The position numbers and the translations under genes are program-made. The notes under the pieces are model-generated. The model worked only from the letters and a program-made list of their open reading frames with translations, searched no databases and was not told the DNA's origin. A stretch of DNA of 64,000 nt from Promethearchaeota archaeon (lineage in GTDB: Archaea > Asgardarchaeota > Lokiarchaeia > Sigyniarchaeales > SOKP01): the NCBI GenBank assembly GCA_016839585.1, contig JAEOTZ010000058.1, forward strand, positions 32,001 to 96,000, read 5' to 3'. Below are positions 13,756-25,800 of this stretch, in pieces (the first letter of the stretch is position 1; each line of letters opens with the position of its first letter).

Positions 13756-14295
13756 ATGTCCGACAGATTAACAGAACTTAGAATTAAAAATAAATCACTT
13801 AAAGACCAAGTGCTAAGCTTAGAAGAGAAAGTTTTATCATTAGTAGGAATGATTAGCTTAGAAACCTCAGGAGGCCCAAATAAGAAAAATGTGCTAAATG
13901 ATCAACTAATTAATTTAATTCAAGAAACAAAAGAACAACTAAATATTGTGTCTCCTAAAATTGATAAATTATATACAACAGAGTTAAAGAAAGTTGTGAA
14001 AAGAGGTATACCTGTATTAATAATAACTAATGATAGAGGAGGAATTCCACAAGAATATCATGAATTTTATGATGAGCTTAAAGTCACACCCGGAATAAAC
14101 GTAATAAATAATCCAAATGTGAAATACTTATTAGTATTTAATACAGAATTGGCTATTTATGCAGGAGGGTCCTTGGATAAAGAAGAGTTAGAAAGATCAA
14201 TTTTAATTGTTACAATGGTAAAGGAAACATCAAAGTTAAGACAAATTGCTGAAATTTTTAGTCTAATGCTCCCTTCATTCATGAGAGGCAAATAA
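13756..14295 (+). CDS. coiled-coil + degenerate PLD-like (TrmB C-terminal-like) domain protein
   Basis: LIQETKEQLNIVSPKI, KRGIPVLIIT and AIYAGGSLD fit the PLD fold; HxK motif absent. Confidence 0.6.
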   Translation: MSDRLTELRIKNKSLKDQVLSLEEKVLSLVGMISLETSGGPNKKNVLNDQLINLIQETKEQLNIVSPKIDKLYTTELKKVVKRGIPVLIITNDRGGIPQEYHEFYDELKVTPGINVINNPNVKYLLVFNTELAIYAGGSLDKEELERSILIVTMVKETSKLRQIAEIFSLMLPSFMRGK

Positions 14296-14356
14296 TTCTA
14301 ACTTTTTTTAATATGATATTTCCTTTTAATTTTAATTGAAGAAAAGGTCAACTTTT

Positions 14357-14518
14357 ATGAATAAAGCTTTGAATGAAAAATCTCAAGTTGTTTTGAAACA
14401 TAACAATATAAAAGAAAATAAGGACAAATCAAAAAGAGTAAAAATTATTGTTGATGAAAATTCTGAATTCGATTGGGATTGGATTTTTGATAGAGAATGG
14501 TTGAGGACAAAAAAATAA
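14357..14518 (+). CDS. small hypothetical protein
   Basis: MNKALNEK...FDWDWIFDREWLRTKK; overlaps methylase start. Confidence 0.35.
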   Translation: MNKALNEKSQVVLKHNNIKENKDKSKRVKIIVDENSEFDWDWIFDREWLRTKK

Positions 14519-16692
14519 TTAACTCTAAAGTCATTTTAAACGCTTTTGGATTAAATTCTAGTATTTTTAAAGATTCTTTGAATTTCCTTGAAAAAGAAGC
14601 AGAAATTAATGAAGAAAAATTCCAAAAAAAATTAAAGGTATGGGAATCACTCTTTAAGAGCTTTTATGGAGAAGAAACAGATTCTAAATTATTTATAAAT
14701 CATTCCTATTTTGCTTTAATTTTAAAAATTTTAATTTTGAGTAAATTATGTATCATTCAGAATAAGAATACAGAAGAGATTTACCAATTTATAAAATCTA
14801 ATAACTTTGATGCCTTAAATATTTTTGAGTTTGAATATTTCAACTGGACTCATTTTAATCGATTAATATTTAAAAAAATCTATCATATAATTGAAAAGAC
14901 CAGTTTTGCACGACAAGATTTATTTCAAAGTCTCTATCAACAAATATTTTTAACGCTAATAAGGCATAAAATAGGAGAATTCTATACGTTTCCTAATCTT
15001 GTTAAGAAAATGGTTGATGATTTTTATGAATTTGGGTTAAAAATATTGGATCCATCCTGTGGTTCAGGGAGTTTTCTGATAGATATTGTAATTAGTATTA
15101 TTAATTCGAATAATCCAGATTCCTCAAAAATTGAGGCTATCAATAAAGTCTATGGCTTTGATATAAACCCTTTAGCAACATTAACTGCTAAAGTTAACCT
15201 TTATTTATTATTTTTAGAATATTTTGACTTAAAGAATAATAAATTACCTAAAATTAATATATTTTTATTAGATTCTCTATTTCCTGAACAGTATGAAAAA
15301 AAAATTAATGTAGATATAAAGAAATTATATAATACTTTTGATCTAATTATTGGCAACCCTCCTTGGTTAACTTATAAAGACATACATAGCAAAACCTATC
15401 AAAACAAAATAAGGAGTTTATCAAATAATCTGGGAATTAAACCCCGTAGTCAATATATTACACATATTGAATTAGCAGCCCTATTCTTCTATGCTATTCC
15501 TTTGAAATTCTTAAAAATTAACGGAAAAATATTTTTCGTTATTACTAAAAGTGTTTTAAATGGAGACCATTGCTTTAAATTTAGAGGTTTTTCAATTTTT
15601 AACAATTTAGAAATCTGGGATTTTCCCAAAGATTATTTCTTTAATGTGAACCATGTCTGCTTGAAAGCAAGATATATTAGTAATAATAGTAATATCTCAC
15701 TTTCTGAAAAGTATCCTATTAAAACTAAAATTTTTAATAATAATCTTGAAAATCTAAAAGAAACCTATTATTCAAGCTTGAAAATCGAAAATGATGGTGC
15801 AAAATTATTACTCCCTGAAAAAGAACTAAAAATTATTAGTGAATTATCAAATAGTAAATATAGGAATATGTTTTTCCAAGGAGCTACTTTAGTTCCTCGG
15901 TCATTAGTCTTTTTTCAGATCGAGGGAAAAAAAAATGACTCTCTCGTAATATCTTCAGACCTAGATACGTTATCAAGGGCAAAAAGTAGATGGAAATTTA
16001 CTTTTAAAAATAAAGAAATTGAGAAAATTTTTAGATATAGGACCTTTTTAAATAGAGACCTTGTACCTTTTTGCATAAAAAAATTGAAAAATGTGTTCCT
16101 TCCTATCAATGAGAGTTTTAATTTTGATCAAAAAAATCTTCAGAAATATCCTAAAGCTATGAGTTTCTATAAGGAAATAAACACTCTTTATCAAACGCAT
16201 AAAAAAGAAACTAGTAGCATAAATACTTTATATGAAAATCTAAATTACTGGAATAAATTAAAAAAACAATTCAAATGTAAAAGTTATATTGTTATATACA
16301 ATGCGAGTGGTTCCAATGTTAAAGCAGCTGTTATAAACAATAATAAACAAAGAATTATCATTGGTTCAGAAAATTATTACTATTCAACTGAATCTGAAAA
16401 TGAAGCCTGTTATTTATCAGCTATATTAAATGCTCCTAATTTATCAAAATATATAAAATTAATAAAAAGTTCCAGACATATTCATAAACGACCGTTTATG
16501 TTTCCAATCCCTATATATGATGATAAAAATGAAAACCATAGGTTATTAGCGAAATTAGGGAAAAAATATCATGCTTTTGTTAAAGACCTTGTTGTAAATA
16601 ATCCAAAAATAACTTCAGAAAAAGTTAGAATATTCATTAATCAGAAGTTAATGAAATTAGAACGATTAACTGAAGTTGCTGTTTTTCAATAA
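14497..16692 (+). CDS. N-6 adenine DNA methyltransferase (type IIG-like MTase+TRD, no evident nuclease domain)
   Basis: GEFYT, ILDPSCGSGSF (motif I), IIGNPPW (motif IV), YLSAILNAP in TRD region. Confidence 0.88.
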   Translation: MVEDKKIINSKVILNAFGLNSSIFKDSLNFLEKEAEINEEKFQKKLKVWESLFKSFYGEETDSKLFINHSYFALILKILILSKLCIIQNKNTEEIYQFIKSNNFDALNIFEFEYFNWTHFNRLIFKKIYHIIEKTSFARQDLFQSLYQQIFLTLIRHKIGEFYTFPNLVKKMVDDFYEFGLKILDPSCGSGSFLIDIVISIINSNNPDSSKIEAINKVYGFDINPLATLTAKVNLYLLFLEYFDLKNNKLPKINIFLLDSLFPEQYEKKINVDIKKLYNTFDLIIGNPPWLTYKDIHSKTYQNKIRSLSNNLGIKPRSQYITHIELAALFFYAIPLKFLKINGKIFFVITKSVLNGDHCFKFRGFSIFNNLEIWDFPKDYFFNVNHVCLKARYISNNSNISLSEKYPIKTKIFNNNLENLKETYYSSLKIENDGAKLLLPEKELKIISELSNSKYRNMFFQGATLVPRSLVFFQIEGKKNDSLVISSDLDTLSRAKSRWKFTFKNKEIEKIFRYRTFLNRDLVPFCIKKLKNVFLPINESFNFDQKNLQKYPKAMSFYKEINTLYQTHKKETSSINTLYENLNYWNKLKKQFKCKSYIVIYNASGSNVKAAVINNNKQRIIIGSENYYYSTESENEACYLSAILNAPNLSKYIKLIKSSRHIHKRPFMFPIPIYDDKNENHRLLAKLGKKYHAFVKDLVVNNPKITSEKVRIFINQKLMKLERLTEVAVFQ

Positions 16693-16852
16693 AAAATGTA
16701 TATCGAGTTACAAATTATATAAAAAAAAATGGTAGATTTTTAAAAAAAAAATACAATATTCAATAACATTTTATTAGAAAGGTTTTTCTTTAAAGAAATA
16801 TTTTCTTTATTGAAAAAGTGTGATAATACGATAAATGTAATTGTGAAATAAA

Positions 16853-18001
16853 CTGAAATTTGAAGATTTAGGTATTAATAAAAAAAATATTAGCGTTCTA
16901 AAAAGTTTAAATATAAACTCACCTACCCCTGTCCAGAATAAAGCAATTCCTTTAATTCTGAAGGGCCAAAATATTATGGCTCAGGCAAAGACGGGAAGTG
17001 GTAAGACTTTAGCATTTGTTCTTCCAATTTTTGAGCGCTTAGAAGGTATTAGAAATGAGGTACTTATTTTAGCACCCACAAGAGAACTTGCGAAACAAGT
17101 CAACCAAGTAATTAAAGATTTAGGGAATTCAATTATAAAGTCTATGACTATATATGGGGGTGTTTCAATTAATAATCAGATAAGAAAATTGGATCTGGGA
17201 GTTCACATAATAGTTGGTACACCTGGTCGAATTATCGATCTCTATAAAAGGAAGAACTTAAAATTTAATAATATAAGATTTGTTGTAGTTGATGAAGCTG
17301 ATAGATTGTTTGATATGGGATTTGCTCCTGATGTCAAATATATTTTAGATCAAATCAAAACCAACTACCAATTTCTACTATTTTCTGCGACGCTTCATAA
17401 TAATATTAGAGAATTAGTGAAGAAGTATTCTAAAAATAAATTTCAATTCATTAATTTAAGTAGAGATAATTTAACTGTAAGTAACACTAAACAATTTTAT
17501 TATTTGATTGATCGATTTGAAGAAAAATTTAAAACTTTCCTGAAGATATTAAGAAGAGAAAAACCAAAGCATACTTTAGTATTCGTTAATACAAAAAAAA
17601 CTGCAGATTGGCTAAATAGACGGTTAAAATCAACTCATAATTTTTATTATAAAGTGGATATTATTTCAGGAAATTTATCTCAACATCAACGAGAAAAAAT
17701 CTTAAATTCCTTTAGAAATCATAAAATTAATATGCTCATAGCTACAGATGTTGCCTCAAGAGGTTTGGATATTGAAAATATCTCACATGTAATAAATTAT
17801 GATGTTCCTAAATATCCAGACGTTTATGTTCATCGAATTGGGCGAACTTCACGAATGAATAAACGTGGTGTTGCTATTACATTATGTTTAAAAGATGAGT
17901 ATGAATATTTATGCCATATTGAAGGTCTAATTGATAAAGAAATTAGGCAAAAAACATTACAATATCAGGAACAAGAAAGATATCATAATCCTTTTTATTA
18001 A
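16853..18001 (+). CDS. DEAD-box RNA helicase (probable CTG start)
   Basis: Q motif (KFEDLGI..PTPVQNKAIP) lies in frame upstream of the ATG at 16976; AKTGSGKT, PTRELA, DEAD, SAT, HRIGRTSR. Confidence 0.92.
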   Translation: MKFEDLGINKKNISVLKSLNINSPTPVQNKAIPLILKGQNIMAQAKTGSGKTLAFVLPIFERLEGIRNEVLILAPTRELAKQVNQVIKDLGNSIIKSMTIYGGVSINNQIRKLDLGVHIIVGTPGRIIDLYKRKNLKFNNIRFVVVDEADRLFDMGFAPDVKYILDQIKTNYQFLLFSATLHNNIRELVKKYSKNKFQFINLSRDNLTVSNTKQFYYLIDRFEEKFKTFLKILRREKPKHTLVFVNTKKTADWLNRRLKSTHNFYYKVDIISGNLSQHQREKILNSFRNHKINMLIATDVASRGLDIENISHVINYDVPKYPDVYVHRIGRTSRMNKRGVAITLCLKDEYEYLCHIEGLIDKEIRQKTLQYQEQERYHNPFY

Positions 18002-18056
18002 AAACTAGCTTTAGCATGTAATATTTGGATATTAAAGCTAAATACATTTTTGAAAA

Positions 18057-18497
18057 ATGAGATTAAAAAGTTGGAGACCTATTATCTTAAAAGACTTCCG
18101 TTTGCGGGTAATAAGGGAGAATTTAAGAACTCTTATTAGCTTAGCTGTGGATGCAGAGATTAGTCGATTGAATGAAAAAGAAGATTTATACAGACAAAGA
18201 CGTATTAATCATAGACAGACTCCCTCTCAGTGGAGAAGGGAATTGTCTATTTATGATAAGAAGGAGAGCATTATGAAGACACTAAATAGCTCAATATTGA
18301 GATGCTCCGAAGGTTCGACTTGCAAATCTAGGGAGATAATGCCCTTAACTCAGGATATTTTGACTTTAGATAAAGATATGGTATGGAATCCTCTCCTTAG
18401 ACATTGGATCTGCATAAATTGTTATAATTTTTACTATAAATCAGAATCAGCGAAGAGAAGATTGGAGGAATTCCTTAAGCAAGATGATCTTCAATGA
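18057..18497 (+). CDS. hypothetical Zn-ribbon protein
   Basis: RCSEGSTC...DMVWNPLLRHWICINCY. Confidence 0.7.
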   Translation: MRLKSWRPIILKDFRLRVIRENLRTLISLAVDAEISRLNEKEDLYRQRRINHRQTPSQWRRELSIYDKKESIMKTLNSSILRCSEGSTCKSREIMPLTQDILTLDKDMVWNPLLRHWICINCYNFYYKSESAKRRLEEFLKQDDLQ

Positions 18498-18637
18498 AAT
18501 TTATAATGAAAAAAACCAAAGTTTTTTGGAAAAGATATTTTTATATAAAATAAGTTTTATACTACTATTATTAGGTTTATGTTAAAAAATGGAAATAAAA
18601 AGTGGAAATTTAGTTATGAATCATTTAATTATAAAGC

Positions 18638-18645
18638 GAGGAGGT
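18638..18645 (+). promoter_or_regulatory. Shine-Dalgarno site for the GTPase GTG start
   Basis: GAGGAGGT 9 nt upstream of GTG at 18655. Confidence 0.7.
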
Positions 18646-18654
18646 TGGTAAGAA

Positions 18655-19299
18655 GTGCCCTCACGTAGAGGAGATGGGACTCTCGTCTTTAAAATTTGTT
18701 TTTATGGACCTTCACTCGGAGGAAAGACAACCGCATTGGAATGGGTCTACAACAAGGAAGGACTTGCTTCAGGTGATTTTAGCTCTCGAATCGAGATTTA
18801 GTACCAGATGCAGCAAATCCAAGATCCTACCGGCAGAACCCTATTTTTTGATCGTGTTGTGGCTCGTGTGAGCAATGTTGTATTCCAAGTATACACCGTT
18901 GCTGGCCAGAGACGTCATAAATTTCAACGCCAAACGGTTTTGAAAGGCACAGACGCTTGTATATTTACATGGGATAGCTTAATAGATCAGTGGCAAGAGA
19001 ATGTGTGGTCTTTAAAGGAATTAATGAGATTCTATGGAGATAAACTAATTCCAACTGGACCTGCTGAACCCCCGGCTGTCCCGCTTGTTGTATTGGCTAA
19101 TAAACGTGATTTAGAGGATATTGTTGAGATAGCTAAAATACGTCAAGTATTTGATACAGCTAAATTAAATCATACACTTATTTATGAAACGATAGCCATC
19201 ACAGGGATAAATGTTAAAAGAGCTTTTGTATATGGAGCTCGACAAGCAGTACTTAATCACTACAAGAAATTATCAGGTAAGTCAATGGAAGCTGCTTAA
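18655..19299 (+). CDS. MglA-like small GTPase, split by a putative intron; exons 18655-18777 and 18808-19299 (204 aa spliced)
   Basis: G1 YGPSLGGKTT, G2 GRTLFFD, G3 TVAGQ, G4 NKRD; both halves in the same frame with TAG at 18799-18801 between them. Confidence 0.9.
18778..18807 (+). other. putative 30-nt bulge-helix-bulge (tRNA-endonuclease-type) mRNA intron
   Basis: 4-bp helix GGUG(18772-75)/UACC(18802-05) flanked by 3-nt bulges AUU(18776-78) and AGA(18806-08), plus inner and outer stems; excision is in frame and removes the stop. Confidence 0.85.
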
Positions 19300-19339
19300 A
19301 GTTTACTAACTTATTTTTAAATTACTTGTTATTAGATTT

Positions 19340-19870
19340 TTATAAATAGATAATTTCGAAATTTACATCTTCCTTAGAGATTTTAAGAAATCCGTATGAA
19401 TTTATATCAGTAAATTTTTTATCGGTAGGAGTTCCAGGGCTTATGTATAATTTACCATCTCTCCACTTTTCATTATATGGATGGTGAACATGCCCAAAAA
19501 TAATAACATCATATTTAGATAAGTCAAAATATTTGTTCAATCGTTTAATGATAATATTTGGTCCTCCCATTCCATGAGTCATAAAAATTTTATGACCATA
19601 TAAATCAAATTCAATTTTTTCAGGTAAAATCTTTATCAATTTATAATCGTCCATATTCCCTCGAATTCCAATAACTTTATCTTTTCCAAAAGTCTCTAAT
19701 AGGTCATTATACACTTTAAATTTGGTAAAATCTCCTAAATGAAAAAGATAGTCAATATTTCTTTCTTTAAAATCATTGATTATAATTTTAGGAATTTCAA
19801 GACCTCTTGATGGGATATGAGTATCCCCAATTAGTCCAATAAGTAGCTCATCTTTTTCTGTTTTAATCAT
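19340..19870 (-). CDS. metallophosphoesterase, YfcE/MJ0936/Vps29 family
   Basis: GDTHIP, HLGD, RGNMD, THG, GHVH, SPGTP. Confidence 0.9.
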   Translation of the reverse strand: MIKTEKDELLIGLIGDTHIPSRGLEIPKIIINDFKERNIDYLFHLGDFTKFKVYNDLLETFGKDKVIGIRGNMDDYKLIKILPEKIEFDLYGHKIFMTHGMGGPNIIIKRLNKYFDLSKYDVIIFGHVHHPYNEKWRDGKLYISPGTPTDKKFTDINSYGFLKISKEDVNFEIIYL

Positions 19871-19912
19871 CGTAAGAACTTAAAAATGTTTTTCTGATTT
19901 ACCGAACCCGAT

Positions 19913-20845
19913 CTATTCTTCTTCTTTATTTTTTTCAACTTCTTTTATTCTAATTTTTATCACTCTGAGAGCGAAATTAATTACGTCATCCATATTACTC
20001 CATCTGCCTTCATCAAGCATTTCTTTAATCCAGTAATAGAGATCTTGTTCTATTGGAATAGTCATATAAATTGGTTTATATGTCTGTTCCTCTGTAGACT
20101 GTGCTTTATTTAATAACCAAGAAATCAAATTTGAGACTAATTTAAAATTATCTGCTGCATTGATACCATAGGATTGCTGTAAACTTGAAAATAAAGATAA
20201 ATTACCTAAAGCTACAACTTTTCCTAATCCAAAATGCGTGATACCAATCACAGGAATTTTTTGGACTGGTTCCTCAACCCAATCATTACCATCAAAATAT
20301 TTATGCCGTGACGATTCCTCAGAAGAAAATGCTATTGCTTTAACATCAATTTTCTCATTCTCAATAGATTTATCTATATTTAAAGTACAACCGCTTGAAT
20401 GAATTATTTCTGCTATTTCTTTTGTAATAAAATGTTTTTTAAAATCTTTAATAATTGGATGTGAGCTTTTTTTTGAAAAATTTTTATCATCAAATAACCT
20501 ATCAGAGTTAAAGGTTATGCCAAAATGTTTAGTAAGTTCTGATAAGTTATTTTTATTATCATAATCGCCACCTTTATCGTTTAATAATAAAAGGCTTCCG
20601 CCATCGTTAACATATTTAACTAATGCTTCAATCTCATCAGGATTAAGATTAGAATCTGTAGTAGGAACACCAATAATGAAGATATTATATTTATTCAATT
20701 TTTCATAGCTAATTCCGGCTTCAATTTTTCCAAGTTGAAAGTCAGAATTAAATAAGTATTGGATAAAATCAGTAAAGGTTTCATTTTCAATAACTAATTT
20801 ATTATTATGGGAATAATCAAATCCAATCGCTTTTTCATTCAACAT
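19913..20845 (-). CDS. GldG/IFT52(GIFT)/DUF4350-like domain protein with C-terminal ribbon-helix-helix
   Basis: FDYSHN, EIEALVKYVNDGGSLLL, GLGKVVALGNLSLF, DNFKLVSNLISWL; tail TIPIEQDL..GRWSNMDDVINFAL. Confidence 0.7.
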   Translation of the reverse strand: MLNEKAIGFDYSHNNKLVIENETFTDFIQYLFNSDFQLGKIEAGISYEKLNKYNIFIIGVPTTDSNLNPDEIEALVKYVNDGGSLLLLNDKGGDYDNKNNLSELTKHFGITFNSDRLFDDKNFSKKSSHPIIKDFKKHFITKEIAEIIHSSGCTLNIDKSIENEKIDVKAIAFSSEESSRHKYFDGNDWVEEPVQKIPVIGITHFGLGKVVALGNLSLFSSLQQSYGINAADNFKLVSNLISWLLNKAQSTEEQTYKPIYMTIPIEQDLYYWIKEMLDEGRWSNMDDVINFALRVIKIRIKEVEKNKEEE

Positions 20846-20922
20846 AATATATATTTCTCCGTAAATTCTTATTTAATTTTGTATTAATTTGATATTATCA
20901 TAAACAAATAAATATATAAATT

Positions 20923-21285
20923 ATGCTAAAAAAAAATTATCGAGATGTTCAAGCTAAACCTGCAACCTTAATGGATGGCACTCTAGTAGAAAATGTCTTT
21001 GTAAGATGGCTAATAGATGAACAAACAGGAGCAAAAAATTTTGCTATGAGGCGTTTTGAAATCAAACCCGACACAAAAGTTTCTCTCCATAATCATCCAG
21101 AAGAGCACGAAATTTATATCTTATCTGGAACCGGAAAATTTTATAATGTTAAAGGGCAAGAAGAAATAGCAAGTACGGGAGATTTTTTATATATTCCCCC
21201 TAATGAAAAGCATGGGTTAGACAATATAGGAGAAGATAATCTAATTTTTTTGTGTCTTATTCCGTATCTTAAAAATAGAAATTAA
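20923..21285 (+). CDS. cupin domain protein
   Basis: LHNHPEEHEIYILSG, YIPPNEKHG. Confidence 0.9.
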   Translation: MLKKNYRDVQAKPATLMDGTLVENVFVRWLIDEQTGAKNFAMRRFEIKPDTKVSLHNHPEEHEIYILSGTGKFYNVKGQEEIASTGDFLYIPPNEKHGLDNIGEDNLIFLCLIPYLKNRN

Positions 21286-21289
21286 AATA

Positions 21290-23728
21290 TTAGGTTTCTT
21301 TTTCACATTTTCCAATTGTTACAACTAAGTCTTTTTCATATAGCTTGATAACTCTAACACCCTTAGCAGTTCTATGTGTGATCCTTATCGAATCAACGGG
21401 TACTCTTATAACTTGACCTTGTTCTGTTCCGACTAATAGATCCATGTTTTTTGCTATTTTTATAGCTATTACTTCATCATTTTTTGTTTTATTCAATGTG
21501 ATATTCTTTACACCTTTAGCGGACCTACCAGTTTTACGATATTCTTTAACGTAAGTTCTTTGTCCATACCCATTTTGAGTGAGTGTTAATATTATCTCAT
21601 CATCTGATACAAGAAGGGCATCAATTACTTCATCATTATCTCTTAATTCCGCTCCTTTCACTCCCATAGAATTACGTCCTAACTCACGTAATTCAGATTC
21701 ATCAAACCTAACCGCATATCCCAATTTAGTAGCTATAAAAATATCTTGAAGTTCATTTGAGAGCCTTTTAACACTTACTAACTCATCATCTGCCCTTATT
21801 CTTTGGGCTCTTACTCCAGTGTTCTTAAATTTTGAGAATAGTTTTAAGGGAGTTTTTTTAATAATACCTTTCTTTGTAGTCATAATAAGCATTTCATTAG
21901 TATTGAAGTTATTAATTGGGATCATAGCTGATATATTTTCTCCTGATTGCAGAGGAATAAGATTTATTATTGGTTTTCCTCTAGCAGTACGTTTTTGTAA
22001 AGGAATATCATAACATTTAATCGAATATACTCTTCCTTTCGATGTAAATATTAAAATTGTGTCATGGGTGGTACAAACAAATAAATCTGTAATAAAATCC
22101 TCTTCGCGTATGGTCATACCTTTTTTCCCACGCCCTCCACGTCTTTGAGCTTGGTATTCTTCCAAAGAAATTCTTTTGATATATTGATTTTTTGTGAAAA
22201 TCACAATAGTAGTTTCTTTTTTAATTAAATCTTTCTTTTCAATTTCTTTTACTTCTTGTTGTTCAACCATTTTAATTTCAGTTTTTCTCTCATCTCCATA
22301 TTTTTTGATTAAGTCAAGTAAATCGCTTTTAATCATGCCCAAACGAACATTCTTATCTTCCAGAATTTTATTATATTCCTCAATACTAGATTGTAATGAT
22401 TTTTGTTCATCAACTAACTTTTGTTGTTCCAAATTTGTTAGTCGTGACAAAGGCATACTCAATATAGATTGAACTTGAATATCACTTAGCTCATAAGCTA
22501 CTTTTAATTTATTTTTCGCTTCACTTGTATCTTTCGAATTTTTAATTATTTTTACTACATTATCGATATCATTTAATGCGATTAAAAGCCCTTCAACTCT
22601 ATGAAGTCGATCTTTTGCCTTCTTAAGAAGATATTCGGTTCTTTTATAAATGATAATTAAACGATGTTCAATATATTCATTAATTATCTCCTTTAAATTG
22701 AGAATTTTTGGTTGTTTACCTTCATTAATTAAAACTAGATTAGTTGTGCTAAATGTTGTTAAAAGTCTAGTTCTTTTAAAAAGAATATTTTTTAGTATTA
22801 CTGGTTGAGCATTTCTAGATAAATCTAATACAATTCGCATACCATTCCTATCGGATTCATCTCGCAAATCTCTAATATCTTTAAGGACTCTATCTTTAAT
22901 TAGCTTAGCAATAGATTCAATCAAATCTGTTTTATTAACTAAATATGGAATTTCAGTAATAATTAAACTAGTTTTATTTCCTTTTATTTCAGTCTCAACC
23001 TTTCCACTAATATTTATCGTTCCATTACCGGTAGTATATGCATTGTAGATACCATTTGTATCAGTGATAATACCCCCTGTCGGAAAATCAGGACCTTTAA
23101 TGATTTCCATTAATTCTTCTATAGATATTTTAGGATCATCTATAGCTGCAATAATCCCACTACATACTTCTGTTAAATTATGGGGGGGCATAGATGTTGC
23201 CATTCCTACTGCAATTCCTTTAGTGCCATTTAATAAGATATTAGGAAGTTTTGCAGGTAGATATGTGGGTTCAGAAGTACTGTTATCAAAATTAGGTTGA
23301 AATTCTACAGTTTCTTTATCTAAATCTTCAATCAGTTCATTTGAGATTAGTGATAATTTTGCTTCAGTATATCTATACGCAGCAGGTGGATCTCCATCTA
23401 TAGATCCAAAATTCCCTTGTGGATGAATTAAAGGATATCTTAATGAAAAGTCCTGTCCCATTCTAACTAATGCATTATAAACTGCCAAATCACCGTGTGG
23501 GTGAAAATTCCCTAAAGTCTCGCCTACAATCTTAGCACATTTCACTGTGGAACCTGCATAATTCCAATTATTTGTTGCCATGGCGTAAATAATACGTCTA
23601 TGAACAGGCTTCAGACCATCTCTGACGTCTGGAATGGCTCTTCCAACGACCACGCTCATTGCATAATCGATATAGCTGCTTTGCATTTCTTCTTTTAATA
23701 AAATCTCTTCAATCTGTTCTGAAGTCAA
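21290..23728 (-). CDS. gyrA: DNA gyrase subunit A
   Basis: RAIPDVRDGLKPVHRR, HPHGD, AAYRYTE, GyrA-box QRRGGRG, C-terminal pinwheel repeats. Confidence 0.97.
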   Translation of the reverse strand: MTSEQIEEILLKEEMQSSYIDYAMSVVVGRAIPDVRDGLKPVHRRIIYAMATNNWNYAGSTVKCAKIVGETLGNFHPHGDLAVYNALVRMGQDFSLRYPLIHPQGNFGSIDGDPPAAYRYTEAKLSLISNELIEDLDKETVEFQPNFDNSTSEPTYLPAKLPNILLNGTKGIAVGMATSMPPHNLTEVCSGIIAAIDDPKISIEELMEIIKGPDFPTGGIITDTNGIYNAYTTGNGTINISGKVETEIKGNKTSLIITEIPYLVNKTDLIESIAKLIKDRVLKDIRDLRDESDRNGMRIVLDLSRNAQPVILKNILFKRTRLLTTFSTTNLVLINEGKQPKILNLKEIINEYIEHRLIIIYKRTEYLLKKAKDRLHRVEGLLIALNDIDNVVKIIKNSKDTSEAKNKLKVAYELSDIQVQSILSMPLSRLTNLEQQKLVDEQKSLQSSIEEYNKILEDKNVRLGMIKSDLLDLIKKYGDERKTEIKMVEQQEVKEIEKKDLIKKETTIVIFTKNQYIKRISLEEYQAQRRGGRGKKGMTIREEDFITDLFVCTTHDTILIFTSKGRVYSIKCYDIPLQKRTARGKPIINLIPLQSGENISAMIPINNFNTNEMLIMTTKKGIIKKTPLKLFSKFKNTGVRAQRIRADDELVSVKRLSNELQDIFIATKLGYAVRFDESELRELGRNSMGVKGAELRDNDEVIDALLVSDDEIILTLTQNGYGQRTYVKEYRKTGRSAKGVKNITLNKTKNDEVIAIKIAKNMDLLVGTEQGQVIRVPVDSIRITHRTAKGVRVIKLYEKDLVVTIGKCEKET

Positions 23729-23775
23729 TTATAACACCATTTCTATTTTAAATTATTTAAATTAAATAAGCAGTT

Positions 23776-25800
23776 TTAAATATCTAATATGTTAACTTCA
23801 TCAAAATTACTAATAATAAACTTTTTTCGAGCTTTAACTTCTTTACCCATCAATTTAGTAAAGATTAAATCATTTTCCAGATAATCCTCATAAGTAACTT
23901 TTTTCAGTGTTCTGGTTTCTCTATTCATAGTTGTGTCGTAAAGTTCATTTGGGTTCATCTCCCCGAGACCCTTATAGCGTTGAATTTTTATGGAATCTGT
24001 GTTCTTTAAATTATATTTTGATTTGATGCTTTTAAGCAAACTTTCTTTTTCTATATCTGAATAAACGTATTCTCTCGTTTTTTTGTAAGATACTTTATAT
24101 AAAGGAGGTACAGCAATATATAAATGTCCTTCATCTATTAAAGGTCTCAAATATCTAAAAAAGAAAGTAAGCAATAAAGTTTCGATATGAAATCCATCGA
24201 TATCTGCGTCGCACATGATTATTACCTTATAGTATCTAAGTTTACTCAAATCGAAACTCTCTTCTGCTTCATCTCCATTCTCTTCTAGCTCGCCATTGAC
24301 ACCATTTATTTGATTATCTTCTTGAAATCCAACTCCTAAAGCTTTGATTATAGCTTGGATTTCATTATTTTGCAGTACTTTATCTATTCTAGCTTTTTCA
24401 ACATTGAGAATTTTACCTCTAATTGGAAGAATTGCTTGATAAGTCCTATCTCTTCCTTGTTTTGCAGGACCACCTGCTGAATCTCCTTCTACTATGAAAA
24501 TCTCTACTTTTTCTGGATCATTTGATGAGCAATCAGCAAGTTTTCCAGGCATTCTAGCACTGTCTAATGCTGATTTTCTTCGAATTAATGTTCTCGCTTT
24601 TTGAGCAGCTTCTCTGGCTATCTTTGCATTAATAGTTTTTAAAACAATCCTTTTAGCAGTTTGCGGGTGTTCTTCGAAATACTGAGTTAATTTTTCAGTA
24701 ACAATTTGGCTAACAATTTGTCTGATTTCGGGATTACCTAACTTTATTTTTGTTTGACTTTCAAATTGAGGATCGGGAAGTTTAACAGAGATTACTGCAG
24801 ATAGACCTTCTCTTGTATCACTTCCACTTAATATATGTCCTTTATACTTCTTTTCCATAAAGTTTTCTACATATGAGTTAAATGCCCTTGTTAAAGCGGA
24901 TTTAAAACCAGTTAAATGAACTCCACCTTCAATTGTATTTATAGTATTTGCATAAGAGAGAATAGTCGTTTGATATCCTTGATTATATTGCATCGCAATA
25001 TCGCAAAGTACCACCGATCCATCTTTATCTTTATAAGAGTCGCTTATGTAAATAATATCATTATGTAGTGGTTGTTTATCCTTGTTTAAATATGAGATAA
25101 ATTCTTTAAGACCACCCTCATAATGAAATTCTTCTTTTTCATTTGTATTTTTATCATGAATCTCAAATCTTGCGTGAGGAGTAAGGAAAGCAAGCTCTCG
25201 CATTCTAGTACTAATAGAAGATACATTAAAAAGTGGTTCTTTTGGATCAAATTCAAAAATTTCCTTATCCGGATAAAAAATTATTTTAGTATAAGACTCC
25301 TTTACTTGTGTTTCTTTTATCTCTGGTTCTGATGCTTTTTTACCCTTTGAAAATTTTTGTGTATAACAAAGCCCATCGCGGCACACTTCAACATCCATCC
25401 ACTCAGTTAATGCATTCACAACTGAAAGTCCAACGCCATGCAAACCACCTGATATTTTATAACTTTTATTGTCAAATTTTCCACCAGAATGTAAATATTC
25501 CATAATAACTTCGAGGGCCGGTTTATTGTATTCAGGATGATTATCGATAGGAATACCTCTACCATTATCAAATATTTGGACAGAATTGTTTTTATTTAGG
25601 GTTATTTTTATCTCATCCGCAAACCCGCCCATTGCTTCGTCGACACAATTATCCAAAACTTCAAAAATAAGATGATGGAGGCCCTTCTTTCCTGTGGAGC
25701 CAATATAGAGTGCTGGTCTCTTCCTAACACCTTCTAAACCTTTTAAAACCTTTATGTCCTCAGCCTGATAAGAGTTTTGGTCAGAGGATTTATCATTCAT
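23776..25800 (-). CDS. gyrB: DNA gyrase subunit B
   Basis: EVLDNCVDE, DNGRGIP, GGLHGVG, VEGDSAGG, PIRGKILNV, RYKGLGEMN. Confidence 0.97.
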   Translation of the reverse strand: MNDKSSDQNSYQAEDIKVLKGLEGVRKRPALYIGSTGKKGLHHLIFEVLDNCVDEAMGGFADEIKITLNKNNSVQIFDNGRGIPIDNHPEYNKPALEVIMEYLHSGGKFDNKSYKISGGLHGVGLSVVNALTEWMDVEVCRDGLCYTQKFSKGKKASEPEIKETQVKESYTKIIFYPDKEIFEFDPKEPLFNVSSISTRMRELAFLTPHARFEIHDKNTNEKEEFHYEGGLKEFISYLNKDKQPLHNDIIYISDSYKDKDGSVVLCDIAMQYNQGYQTTILSYANTINTIEGGVHLTGFKSALTRAFNSYVENFMEKKYKGHILSGSDTREGLSAVISVKLPDPQFESQTKIKLGNPEIRQIVSQIVTEKLTQYFEEHPQTAKRIVLKTINAKIAREAAQKARTLIRRKSALDSARMPGKLADCSSNDPEKVEIFIVEGDSAGGPAKQGRDRTYQAILPIRGKILNVEKARIDKVLQNNEIQAIIKALGVGFQEDNQINGVNGELEENGDEAEESFDLSKLRYYKVIIMCDADIDGFHIETLLLTFFFRYLRPLIDEGHLYIAVPPLYKVSYKKTREYVYSDIEKESLLKSIKSKYNLKNTDSIKIQRYKGLGEMNPNELYDTTMNRETRTLKKVTYEDYLENDLIFTKLMGKEVKARKKFIISNFDEVNILDI

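What the first reader, a model, noticed from the sequence alone, without database searches (positions are those of the whole stretch)
18655..19299. Bulge-helix-bulge (tRNA-type) intron inside the mRNA of an Asgard small GTPase
Seen in sequence: a GTG-started frame with a good RBS encodes the P-loop (YGPSLGGKTT), hits TAG at 18799-18801, then resumes in the same frame with G2-G4 motifs. The interval folds into a canonical hBHBh' motif. The outer exon-exon stem is GGACUUGCUUCA(18760-71)/UGCAGCAAAUCC(18809-20), 10 of 12 paired. The central 4-bp helix is GGUG(18772-75)/UACC(18802-05), with 3-nt bulges AUU(18776-78) and AGA(18806-08) on opposite strands. The inner hairpin is UUAGCUCUCG-AAU-CGAGAUUUAG. 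Established knowledge: the archaeal splicing endonuclease EndA cuts after the second nucleotide of each bulge and RtcB ligates the exons; the classic archaeal mRNA intron of this kind is in crenarchaeal cbf5. Applying that rule excises exactly 18778-18807 (30 nt), removes the stop and gives ...LASGD|MQQIQDPTGRTLFFD..., a 204-aa MglA-like GTPase. The unspliced mRNA would give a 48-aa dead peptide. Inference: expression of this signalling GTPase depends on non-spliceosomal mRNA splicing, possibly regulated, conceptually similar to eukaryotic HAC1/XBP1 splicing. Gene callers would miss this and annotate a P-loop-less protein.
Basis: partly seen in the sequence, partly recalled or inferred. Interest (0 to 1): 0.96.

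Follow-up and report, generated by a model that had tools for sequence, protein, structure and literature searches.

The report
tRNA-type mini-intron in Asgard GTPase gene
A 30-base, stop-bearing insert splits the only MglA-type GTPase gene of this Loki-lineage (Asgard) archaeon and has the shape and boundaries of an intron cut by the tRNA-splicing enzymes; relatives carry similar mini-introns at ten places in the same gene, so messenger-RNA splicing may be common in the archaea closest to eukaryotes.

Summary
The frame starts at GTG 18655, stops at TAG 18799-18801 and resumes in frame at ATG 18808. Window 18760-18820 folds as a canonical bulge-helix-bulge (BHB) motif.

The intron reading is strongly supported by comparison, but no RNA data exist for it.
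- Over 100 intron-less orthologs from Promethearchaeota (Loki) genomes and metagenomes read ...GD|MQQIQ... exactly at the junction the BHB cut rule predicts.
- Thirteen orthologs carry 17 inserts of 29-33 nt at 10 different positions. Every one fits the BHB geometry, and cutting by the rule restores the conserved protein. Two inserts are 29 nt, so they shift the frame.
- The five introns at this site show compensatory base changes.
- Interrupted genes are under strong purifying selection (dN/dS 0.007-0.08).
- The genome encodes two EndA subunits and RtcB, but no PylD.
- Independent DNA assemblies hold the insert.
- RNase HII and phosphofructokinase genes of the same genome carry the same kind of insert.

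The HAC1-like regulation idea has no support, because the intron is sporadic even among the closest relatives. This scan has noted the same class on other DNA, including this genome. In the papers I could search, only cbf5 and one Haloferax 5' UTR are reported.

The parts
18640..18645 (+). Shine-Dalgarno-like GGAGGT, 9 nt upstream of the GTG start
   Evidence: sequence read
18655..18777 (+). Exon 1: 41 codons, from the GTG start through the P-loop (G1, YGPSLGGKTT) to ...EGLASGD
   Evidence: tblastn shows the exon 1 peptide directly abutting exon 2 in intron-less orthologs
18760..18771 (+). 5' strand of the outer (exon-exon) helix h
   Evidence: pairs with 18809-18820 in 10 of 12 positions; exon-exon complementarity is higher in intron bearers (mean 9.2) than in intron-less orthologs (mean 6.5) out of 12
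18772..18775 (+). 5' strand of the 4-bp central helix H (GGUG)
   Evidence: 4 of 4 paired with 18802-18805; 95% of cells paired across the five site-C introns, with a U-A to C-G compensatory change
18776..18778 (+). 5' bulge AUU; predicted EndA cut between 18777 and 18778
   Evidence: the cut rule gives exactly the junction of intron-less orthologs
18778..18807 (+). 30-nt BHB mini-intron, phase 0, with an in-frame TAG
   Evidence: absent from 28 of 30 orthologs first examined and from over 100 in total; present in an identical independent contig (X3) and a diverged one (X6)
18779..18801 (+). Inner hairpin h' (10-nt arms, 9 pairs, 3-nt loop AAU)
   Evidence: five of its ten pairs show changes on both sides among site-C introns
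18799..18801 (+). In-frame TAG that ends the unspliced frame after 48 codons
   Evidence: no PylD in the genome
18802..18805 (+). 3' strand of the central helix H (UACC), inside the intron
18806..18808 (+). 3' bulge AGA; predicted EndA cut between 18807 and 18808
18808..19299 (+). Exon 2: 163 codons plus the stop; holds switch I (TGRTLFFD), G3 TVAGQ and G4 NKRD
   Evidence: recorded in public databases as a 163-aa protein
18809..18820 (+). 3' strand of the outer helix h

Best explanation
Window 18778-18807 is a 30-nt bulge-helix-bulge (tRNA-type) intron in the pre-mRNA of the only MglA-type small GTPase of this Promethearchaeota (Loki-lineage Asgard) archaeon.

Proposed mechanism:
- The transcript folds so that exon 1 and exon 2 pair with each other (outer helix).
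- Four exon-1 bases pair with four intron bases (central helix).
- The intron forms its own hairpin, which leaves two 3-nt bulges on opposite strands.
- The heteromeric splicing endonuclease EndA cuts after the second base of each bulge.
- RtcB joins the exons, removing the TAG and giving a 204-aa protein that reads ...LASGD|MQQIQDPTGR...
- The excised 30-mer is probably circularised or degraded.

What is shown: the structure; the exact match of the boundaries to intron-less orthologs; covariation; selection on both exons; presence of the enzymes; and the same kind of intron at nine other sites of this gene and in other genes.

What is inferred: cleavage and ligation in vivo.

The intron is most likely a tolerated insertion, one of a dynamic population of such mini-introns, and not a regulatory device.
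For: 1. Exact junction. In 28 of 30 orthologs of the same genus and order, exon-1 residue 41 directly abuts exon-2 Met, reading GD|MQQIQDPTGR. The same holds in over 100 of 132 genomic and metagenomic orthologs. A DNA contig in run X5 joins ...GGTGAT to position 18808.

2. Recurrence. Thirteen orthologs hold 17 inserts of 29-33 nt at 10 positions of the 612-nt gene. The central helix pairs 4 of 4 in 13 inserts and 3 of 4 in the other 4. The cut rule restores a full-length, stop-free, ortholog-like protein in every gene scored. For 12 of the 13 inserts tested, the best BHB register among 21 shifts is a register that yields the correct mRNA; the chance probability is about 1e-14.

3. Frameshifting inserts. 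Two inserts are 29 nt (G052 and DZ1M.51). Inserts contain TAG, TAA or TGA, and they sit in all three codon phases.

4. Covariation at this site, from five introns in two clades. 80.8% of cells are paired, against 26-45% when partners are slid. Six pairs change on both sides, against 0-2 in the slid controls. The central helix shows U-A to C-G.

5. Selection. dN/dS is 0.007-0.08 between interrupted genes and their neighbours at dS 0.5-1.9, on both exons. No intact second copy exists in this 99% complete genome; the next paralog is 34% identical.

6. Machinery. Two EndA-family genes are present, and one best matches the catalytic alpha subunit of the crenarchaeal heterotetramer 3P1Z_B at E = 7e-36. 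RtcB is present. Published work assigns Asgard archaea the broad-specificity (alpha-beta)2 EndA with the L1 loop (PMC5829648).

7. Not an assembly artefact. The X3 contig is identical across 18423-19500. The X6 contig, from another study, is about 91% identical and holds the insert without gaps.

8. Same class elsewhere in this genome. RNase HII has a 30-nt insert that restores DEAGRGP. Phosphofructokinase has inserts of 31 and 30 nt that restore TGGGDCPGLN and IGGDDTLG. tRNA genes are heavily interrupted: ARAGORN finds 30 tRNAs, 19 of them with introns.
Against: - No RNA evidence exists. No RNA run holding this organism was listed, so cleavage and ligation are inferred.
- The fold is only modestly more stable than shuffles: z = -1.86, and 9 of 200 shuffles fold as well.
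- BHB-like motifs are abundant by chance in this AT-rich genome. A homology-free genome scan could not separate true from mirror-image geometry, so the motif by itself proves nothing.
- Four of the 17 introns have an imperfect central helix. They would need a broad-specificity EndA, which is assumed from the literature and not shown for this organism.
- Exon 2 happens to begin with ATG, so separate translation of a 163-aa fragment cannot be strictly excluded for this one site.
Confidence: 0.85

Rival explanations
1. Dead gene: a small hairpin element inserted into the GTPase gene and killed it, and the BHB-like fold is coincidental.
For: The insert carries a stop. Hairpin and BHB-like motifs are frequent by chance in this AT-rich genome. 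The insert is absent from most relatives.
Against: dN/dS is 0.03-0.08 on both exons between interrupted genes at dS of about 0.5-1.9. There are no lesions other than the inserts in 13 interrupted genes. It is the only ortholog in a 99% complete genome. All 17 inserts obey the same cut geometry, and the stems covary.
Confidence: 0.04
2. Split gene: the cell makes a 48-aa P-loop peptide and a separate 163-aa protein from ATG 18808, which may assemble; no splicing is needed.
For: Exon 2 starts with ATG, and databases list the 163-aa product.
Against: The Met is conserved at this position in intron-less orthologs too, so the ATG is not special to the split form. No Shine-Dalgarno-like sequence precedes 18808. 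At the other nine sites the downstream exon does not begin with a start codon, and several sites are in phase 1 or 2. The covarying BHB would be unexplained.
Confidence: 0.04
3. Recoding: the TAG is read through (pyrrolysine or suppression), or the ribosome hops over the insert, giving a 214-aa or a bypassed protein.
For: The insert is a multiple of 3 with a single TAG. Some Asgard lineages are reported to encode pyrrolysine (my own recollection, not checked here).
Against: No PylD scores above the cut-off in the genome. Orthologous inserts carry TAA and TGA, often two stops, and two inserts are 29 nt. MglA structures and more than 100 orthologs have no residues at this position. There is no matching take-off and landing codon pair for a hop in the right frame (sequence).
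Confidence: 0.02
4. Real BHB intron that also acts as a regulated on/off switch for the GTPase, an analogue of HAC1/XBP1.
For: Without splicing only a 48-aa peptide is made, so the splicing rate necessarily gates expression.
Against: The intron is missing from the closest relatives (G057, 98% identical protein). It is replaced by introns at other sites in sister lineages. The same kind of intron sits in housekeeping genes such as RNase HII and PFK. No sensor nuclease is implied, because EndA is constitutive.
Confidence: 0.08
5. Assembly or binning artefact created the insert.
For: The source is a metagenome-assembled genome of 91 contigs.
Against: An identical 2.7-kb contig comes from another sample, and a diverged contig with the insert comes from another study. 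Homologous introns occur in G056, G021, G042 and in a metagenome contig.
Confidence: 0.01

Closest known systems
BHB intron in the cbf5 (pseudouridine synthase) pre-mRNA of Crenarchaeota (Watanabe 2002; Yoshinari 2006; Yokobori 2009, PMC2738675)
   Same: It is an intron inside an archaeal coding sequence with hBHBh' geometry. It is removed by a hetero-oligomeric EndA plus a ligase, and it is gained and lost among related species.
   Different: The lineage is different (Asgard/Promethearchaeota) and so is the gene (an MglA-type GTPase). The size class is uniform and tiny (29-33 nt). Ten alternative positions occur in one 612-nt gene, with up to three introns per gene, and other genes of the same genome are hit too. 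Splicing is experimentally shown for cbf5 but not here.
BHB intron in the 5' UTR of HVO_1309 mRNA, Haloferax volcanii (PMC7714728)
   Same: It is an mRNA substrate of the archaeal splicing endonuclease outside tRNA and rRNA.
   Different: That intron lies in the untranslated leader and does not interrupt the reading frame. It is a single case in a euryarchaeon with a homodimeric EndA.
[quoted passage not shown]
   Same: They share the motif, the cut rule and the enzymes. They show repeated, lineage-specific gains at many positions. This genome also has many interrupted tRNA genes.
   Different: The host RNA here is a messenger, so the exon arms of the motif must also encode protein, and synonymous sites appear to carry the outer helix.
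HAC1/XBP1 unconventional mRNA splicing in eukaryotes (Ire1 plus tRNA ligase or RtcB)
   Same: Splicing is non-spliceosomal and protein-catalysed, it changes the reading frame or product, and exons are joined by RtcB in metazoa.
   Different: The endonuclease is Ire1, which recognises twin stem-loops, not a BHB. That system is stress-regulated and conserved. Nothing here indicates regulation.

Membership tests
Archaeal bulge-helix-bulge (EndA/RtcB) intron | A 4-bp central helix flanked by two 3-nt bulges on opposite strands, each bulge 3' of its helix strand | tested here: met
   GGUG 18772-75 pairs with UACC 18802-05; bulges lie at 18776-78 and 18806-08. The handedness equals that of pre-tRNA (established knowledge: the anticodon-intron pair 32:i-3).
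Archaeal bulge-helix-bulge (EndA/RtcB) intron | Flanking helices h (exon-exon) and h' (intron hairpin) | tested here: met
   The outer helix pairs 10 of 12 and the inner helix 9 of 10.
Archaeal bulge-helix-bulge (EndA/RtcB) intron | Cutting after the second nucleotide of each bulge yields the functional mature RNA | tested here: met
   The predicted junction equals the sequence of intron-less orthologs. The same holds for all 17 introns at 10 sites.
Archaeal bulge-helix-bulge (EndA/RtcB) intron | The structure is conserved through compensatory change | tested here: met
   80.8% of cells paired against 26-45% when slid; six pairs have changes on both sides. Only five sequences from two clades were available, so power is limited.
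Archaeal bulge-helix-bulge (EndA/RtcB) intron | The host encodes the splicing endonuclease and the RtcB ligase | tested here: met
   There are two PF01974 genes and one PF01139 gene. PDB matches are to EndA subunits.
Archaeal bulge-helix-bulge (EndA/RtcB) intron | The EndA is of the broad-specificity (alpha-beta)2 type with the L1 loop, needed for the relaxed motifs seen at 4 of 17 sites | tested here: inconclusive
   Two paralogs are present, and one is closest to the crenarchaeal catalytic subunit 3P1Z_B. The L1 loop was not examined. The literature assigns this type to Asgard archaea (PMC5829648).
Archaeal bulge-helix-bulge (EndA/RtcB) intron | Excision and exon ligation observed in RNA | not testable with these tools
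   No RNA run was listed for this DNA. No record holds a protein identical to the spliced product.
MglA-type small GTPase (Ras superfamily) | G1 P-loop, switch-I intrinsic Arg (RTLFFD), G3 TxxGQ in place of DxxGQ, and G4 NKxD | tested here: met
   The translation shows YGPSLGGKTT, TGRTLFFD, TVAGQ and NKRD. The best solved relatives are MglA 5YMX, 6H17 and 3T12 at E = 2e-18 to 2e-17. Pfam sees only Arf and Ras.
MglA-type small GTPase (Ras superfamily) | A partner MglB/Roadblock GAP encoded nearby | tested here: not met
   The neighbours are an unknown 146-aa protein, a Metallophos_2 phosphoesterase and an IFT52-GIFT protein. Adjacency is common but not defining. The genome was not searched for Roadblock genes.
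Pyrrolysine-decoded TAG | A Pyl biosynthesis and charging system in the genome | tested here: not met
   The best TIGR03911 (PylD) score is 20 bits against a cut-off of 150. PylS, PylB and PylC were not searched.
HAC1/XBP1-type regulated unconventional splicing | The intron is conserved in orthologs as part of a stress switch and is cut by a dedicated sensor nuclease | tested here: not met
   The intron is absent from most orthologs, including those with 98% identical protein. An Ire1-like sensor was not searched.

The most novel reading that the evidence does not exclude
Loki-lineage Asgard archaea may carry a dynamic, still-spreading population of roughly 30-nt BHB mini-introns in protein-coding genes.
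- One 612-nt GTPase gene has been hit at 10 positions.
- The same position (site E) holds unrelated intron sequences in different lineages.
- Most 5' exons end in AA.

This pattern would imply an active insertion process with a weak target preference, such as reversal of the EndA/RtcB reaction followed by reverse transcription and recombination, or a DNA-level mechanism. The closest archaeal relatives of eukaryotes would then already live with intron-rich messengers that a protein enzyme must splice before translation.
Probability: 0.35. Interest if true: 0.95.

Novelty: new variant of a known kind. Interest (0 to 1): 0.85.

Why it matters
In print, splicing of an archaeal coding sequence rests on essentially one gene, cbf5 in Crenarchaeota, plus one 5' UTR in Haloferax. 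Here a signalling GTPase related to the eukaryotic Ras superfamily is interrupted in the phylum closest to eukaryotes. Across one genus the same small gene carries mini-introns at ten positions, up to three at once. Other genes of the same genome are also affected.

If the introns are spliced as predicted, several things follow:
- Translation of many Asgard genes depends on prior RNA processing, which bears on how transcription and translation are coupled in these cells.
- Current annotations of Asgard proteomes contain many truncated or split proteins. Here a P-loop-less 163-aa "Arf-like" protein is on record.
- Recurrent intron gain in protein genes can be studied in a prokaryote, which is relevant to debates on how intron-rich genes arose.

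Tried and rejected
- **RNA evidence.** No RNA holder was listed for window 14001-24000, so no junction reads could be sought. Only DNA contigs were laid.
- **Exact-sequence look-up.** No record holds a 204-aa protein identical to the spliced product; the nearest differ by 3 residues.
- **Homology-free genome scans.** I scanned G000 for the BHB motif combined with ORF joining. The scan found 132 joins against 104 for random excisions. True geometry gave 620 joins against 610 for mirror-image geometry. The motif is too common in a 30% GC genome for this test to discriminate, so I make no genome-wide intron count.
- **Paralog L005.** The "1 TAA inside" flag on G000:C87 was only the end of the match. 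Its frame is continuous and it has no intron.
- **Common alignment of introns from different sites.** MAFFT misaligned them (39% column identity), so I did not build a structure-only covariance model for a genome search. The result also shows that introns at different sites share no sequence.
- **Alignment artefacts.** Apparent insertions at the C-terminal end of distant orthologs (L168, L220, L226 and the other-family loci L027-L038) were treated as alignment artefacts or ordinary indels.
- **Ribosomal bypass.** I considered it and rejected it from the sequence. The only GAU near the 3' end (18807-18809) would resume translation in the wrong frame.

Full report
**Observation.**
- A GGAGGT precedes a GTG at 18655.
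- The frame encodes YGPSLGGKTT and stops at TAG 18799-18801 after 48 codons.
- An ATG at 18808 opens a 163-codon frame, in the same phase, that ends at 19299.
- Read through, the product hits Pfam Arf and Ras. Its best solved relatives are MglA proteins at E = 2e-18, and that alignment places a gap exactly opposite the ten extra codons.
- The protein has the MglA hallmarks TGRTLFFD, TVAGQ and NKRD.

**Structure.** All pairings hold.
- The outer exon-exon helix (18760-71 with 18809-20) pairs in 10 of 12 positions.
- The central helix GGUG/UACC pairs in 4 of 4.
- The bulges are AUU and AGA.
- The inner hairpin has 9 of 10 pairs.
- Each bulge lies 3' of its central-helix strand. This is the handedness of pre-tRNA BHB motifs (established knowledge from the anticodon-intron pair).
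- An unconstrained fold gives the same architecture, but with a z-score of only -1.86.
- My own scans show that BHB-like motifs are plentiful by chance in this 30% GC genome. The fold alone is therefore not evidence.

**Orthologs settle the boundaries.** The window is contig C47 of a 3.45-Mb, 99% complete genome. Record titles of relatives name them Promethearchaeota, the former Lokiarchaeota.
- In 28 of 30 orthologs from the same genus and order, the exon-1 peptide ends at residue 41 and the exon-2 peptide starts at the next base, reading ...GD|MQQIQDPTGR.
- Adding 54 genomes of the genus and 80 metagenome contigs, 100 of 132 orthologs have no insertion at all. The remaining differences are mostly ordinary indels in distant families.
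- The 30 bases that the BHB cut rule removes are exactly the bases that intron-less genes lack.
- A DNA contig in run X5 joins ...GGTGAT directly to 18808.

**The gene is a hot spot for the same kind of insert.** Thirteen orthologs are interrupted: G000, G056, G021, G042, G052, G043, a second contig of G057, three metagenome contigs, and the MAGs AMARA_1S, Yap2000.bin6.138 and DZ1M.51.
- Together they hold 17 inserts of 29, 30 or 33 nt at ten positions of the 612-nt gene.
- G042 has three inserts, and G052 and AMARA_1S have two each.
- Every insert fits helix - 4-bp helix - 3-nt bulge - hairpin - 4-bp helix - 3-nt bulge - helix. The central helix pairs 4 of 4 in 13 inserts and 3 of 4 in four.
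- Cutting after the second bulge base restores a stop-free protein that aligns without gaps to the reference in the ten genes scored. It restores the conserved local peptide in the three added later.
- For 12 of the 13 inserts tested, the best BHB register among 21 shifts is a register that yields the right mRNA. The chance probability is about 1e-14.
- Two inserts are 29 nt and shift the frame. Inserts contain TAG, TAA or TGA and occupy all three codon phases. This excludes read-through and translated insertions.
- Introns at different sites share no sequence. At site E three unrelated introns occupy the same position.

**Covariation at the finding's site.** Five introns from two distant clades align without gaps.
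- With the BHB structure imposed, 80.8% of cells pair, against 26-45% when partners are slid by 1-3 columns.
- Six pairs show changes on both sides, against 0-2 in the slid controls.
- The central helix is 95% paired and includes a U-A to C-G change.
- Intron bearers also have more exon-exon complementarity in the outer helix than intron-less orthologs: mean 9.2 against 6.5 of 12. The bearers are not independent lineages, so this difference is only suggestive.

**Not a dead gene and not an artefact.**
- dN/dS between interrupted genes and their neighbours is 0.007-0.08 at dS 0.5-1.9, on both exons.
- The next paralog in G000 is only 34% identical.
- A contig from another sample (X3) is identical over 18423-19500. 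A contig from a different study (X6) is about 91% identical and holds the insert without gaps.

**Machinery.**
- G000 has two EndA-family genes. One is closest to the catalytic subunit of the crenarchaeal heterotetramer.
- It has one RtcB and no PylD.
- The literature assigns Asgard archaea the broad-specificity (alpha-beta)2 EndA (PMC5829648). Earlier work linked cbf5 pre-mRNA splicing to hetero-oligomeric EndA (Yoshinari 2006, cited there).
- ARAGORN finds only 30 tRNA genes in this near-complete genome, 19 of them with introns. This fits the heavily interrupted Asgard tRNA genes described in preprint 10.64898/2026.10.13.758758.

**The same class occurs elsewhere in this genome.** Following earlier notes of this scan, I checked two genes myself.
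- RNase HII (C52) has a 30-nt insert with a TAG inside DEAGRGP.
- Phosphofructokinase (C62) has a 31-nt frameshifting insert and a 30-nt insert.
- All three have a long hairpin and a 3-of-4 or 4-of-4 central helix, and the cut rule restores the conserved motifs.
- Other notes of the scan report transcript-level support for this class in other Asgard genes. I did not verify those reports.

**Distribution.** On a gene tree the site-C intron occurs in two separate clades. The clade of G000 and G056 also includes G043 and G057:C1, which lack it but carry a site-E intron. Their sister G057:C27 has no intron at all. Other sites are scattered singly. This pattern indicates repeated gain and loss, not a conserved regulatory element, so I do not support the HAC1-like switch idea. 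Unspliced RNA would of course yield only a 48-aa peptide.

**Literature.** Seven searches found no report of BHB introns in Asgard protein genes. A 2020 paper states that apart from its new Haloferax 5' UTR case, only cbf5 is known (PMC7714728).

**Annotation.** Gene callers do record the truncated protein. This exact 163-aa sequence is on record, and 163-aa relatives are named "ADP-ribosylation factor-like protein".

**Verdict.** What is missing is RNA or enzymatic proof. It is a new variant of a known kind. This scan has met the same class before on other DNA, including other parts of this genome.

Noticed in passing
window 16847-18001 (+): The DEAD-box helicase domain (PF00270, profile position 1) begins 17 codons upstream of the first ATG/GTG/TTG (16976). 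The open frame from the stop at 16844-46 encodes the F-x-DLG and PTPVQ (Q-motif) region but has no canonical start codon. Possible causes are a non-canonical start, a sequencing error or another small intron at the 5' end.
   Followed up: partly
window 19340-20845 (-): A two-gene unit converges on the GTPase: an IFT52-GIFT/ABC_transp_aux protein (19913-20845) and a Metallophos_2, YfcE/Vps29-like phosphoesterase (19340-19870).
   Followed up: partly
G000:C52:9077-9706 (-) and G000:C62:42490-43461 (-): The RNase HII and phosphofructokinase genes of the same genome are interrupted by BHB-type mini-introns of 30 nt and of 31 + 30 nt. Removing them restores DEAGRGP, TGGGDCPGLN and IGGDDTLG.
   Followed up: yes
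L040 (G057:C27) versus L059 (G057:C1): One MAG holds both an intron-less copy and a partial copy with a 33-nt site-E intron (97-98% identical proteins). This is probably strain mixture, and it shows presence/absence polymorphism among very close strains. Run X5 likewise holds both forms.
   Followed up: partly
intron-exon boundaries in L001, L020, L039, L041, L057, L058, L075, L098, L144, L222, L224, L225: At 7 of 10 sites the 5' exon ends in AA, and most introns also end in A-N, so both bulges are A-rich. Several introns are flanked by a 2-nt direct repeat. This could be a requirement of EndA or a footprint of the insertion process.
   Followed up: no
G000 whole genome: ARAGORN detects only 30 tRNA genes in a 99% complete genome, 19 with introns and several at odd positions. 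Many tRNA genes are probably too interrupted to be found.
   Followed up: no
first codon of the GTPase orthologs (L001, L010, L020, L040, L057, L058, L059): The aligned first codon varies among GTG, TTG, ATG, CTG, ATT and ATA across species. Either non-canonical starts are used or some starts lie elsewhere.
   Followed up: no
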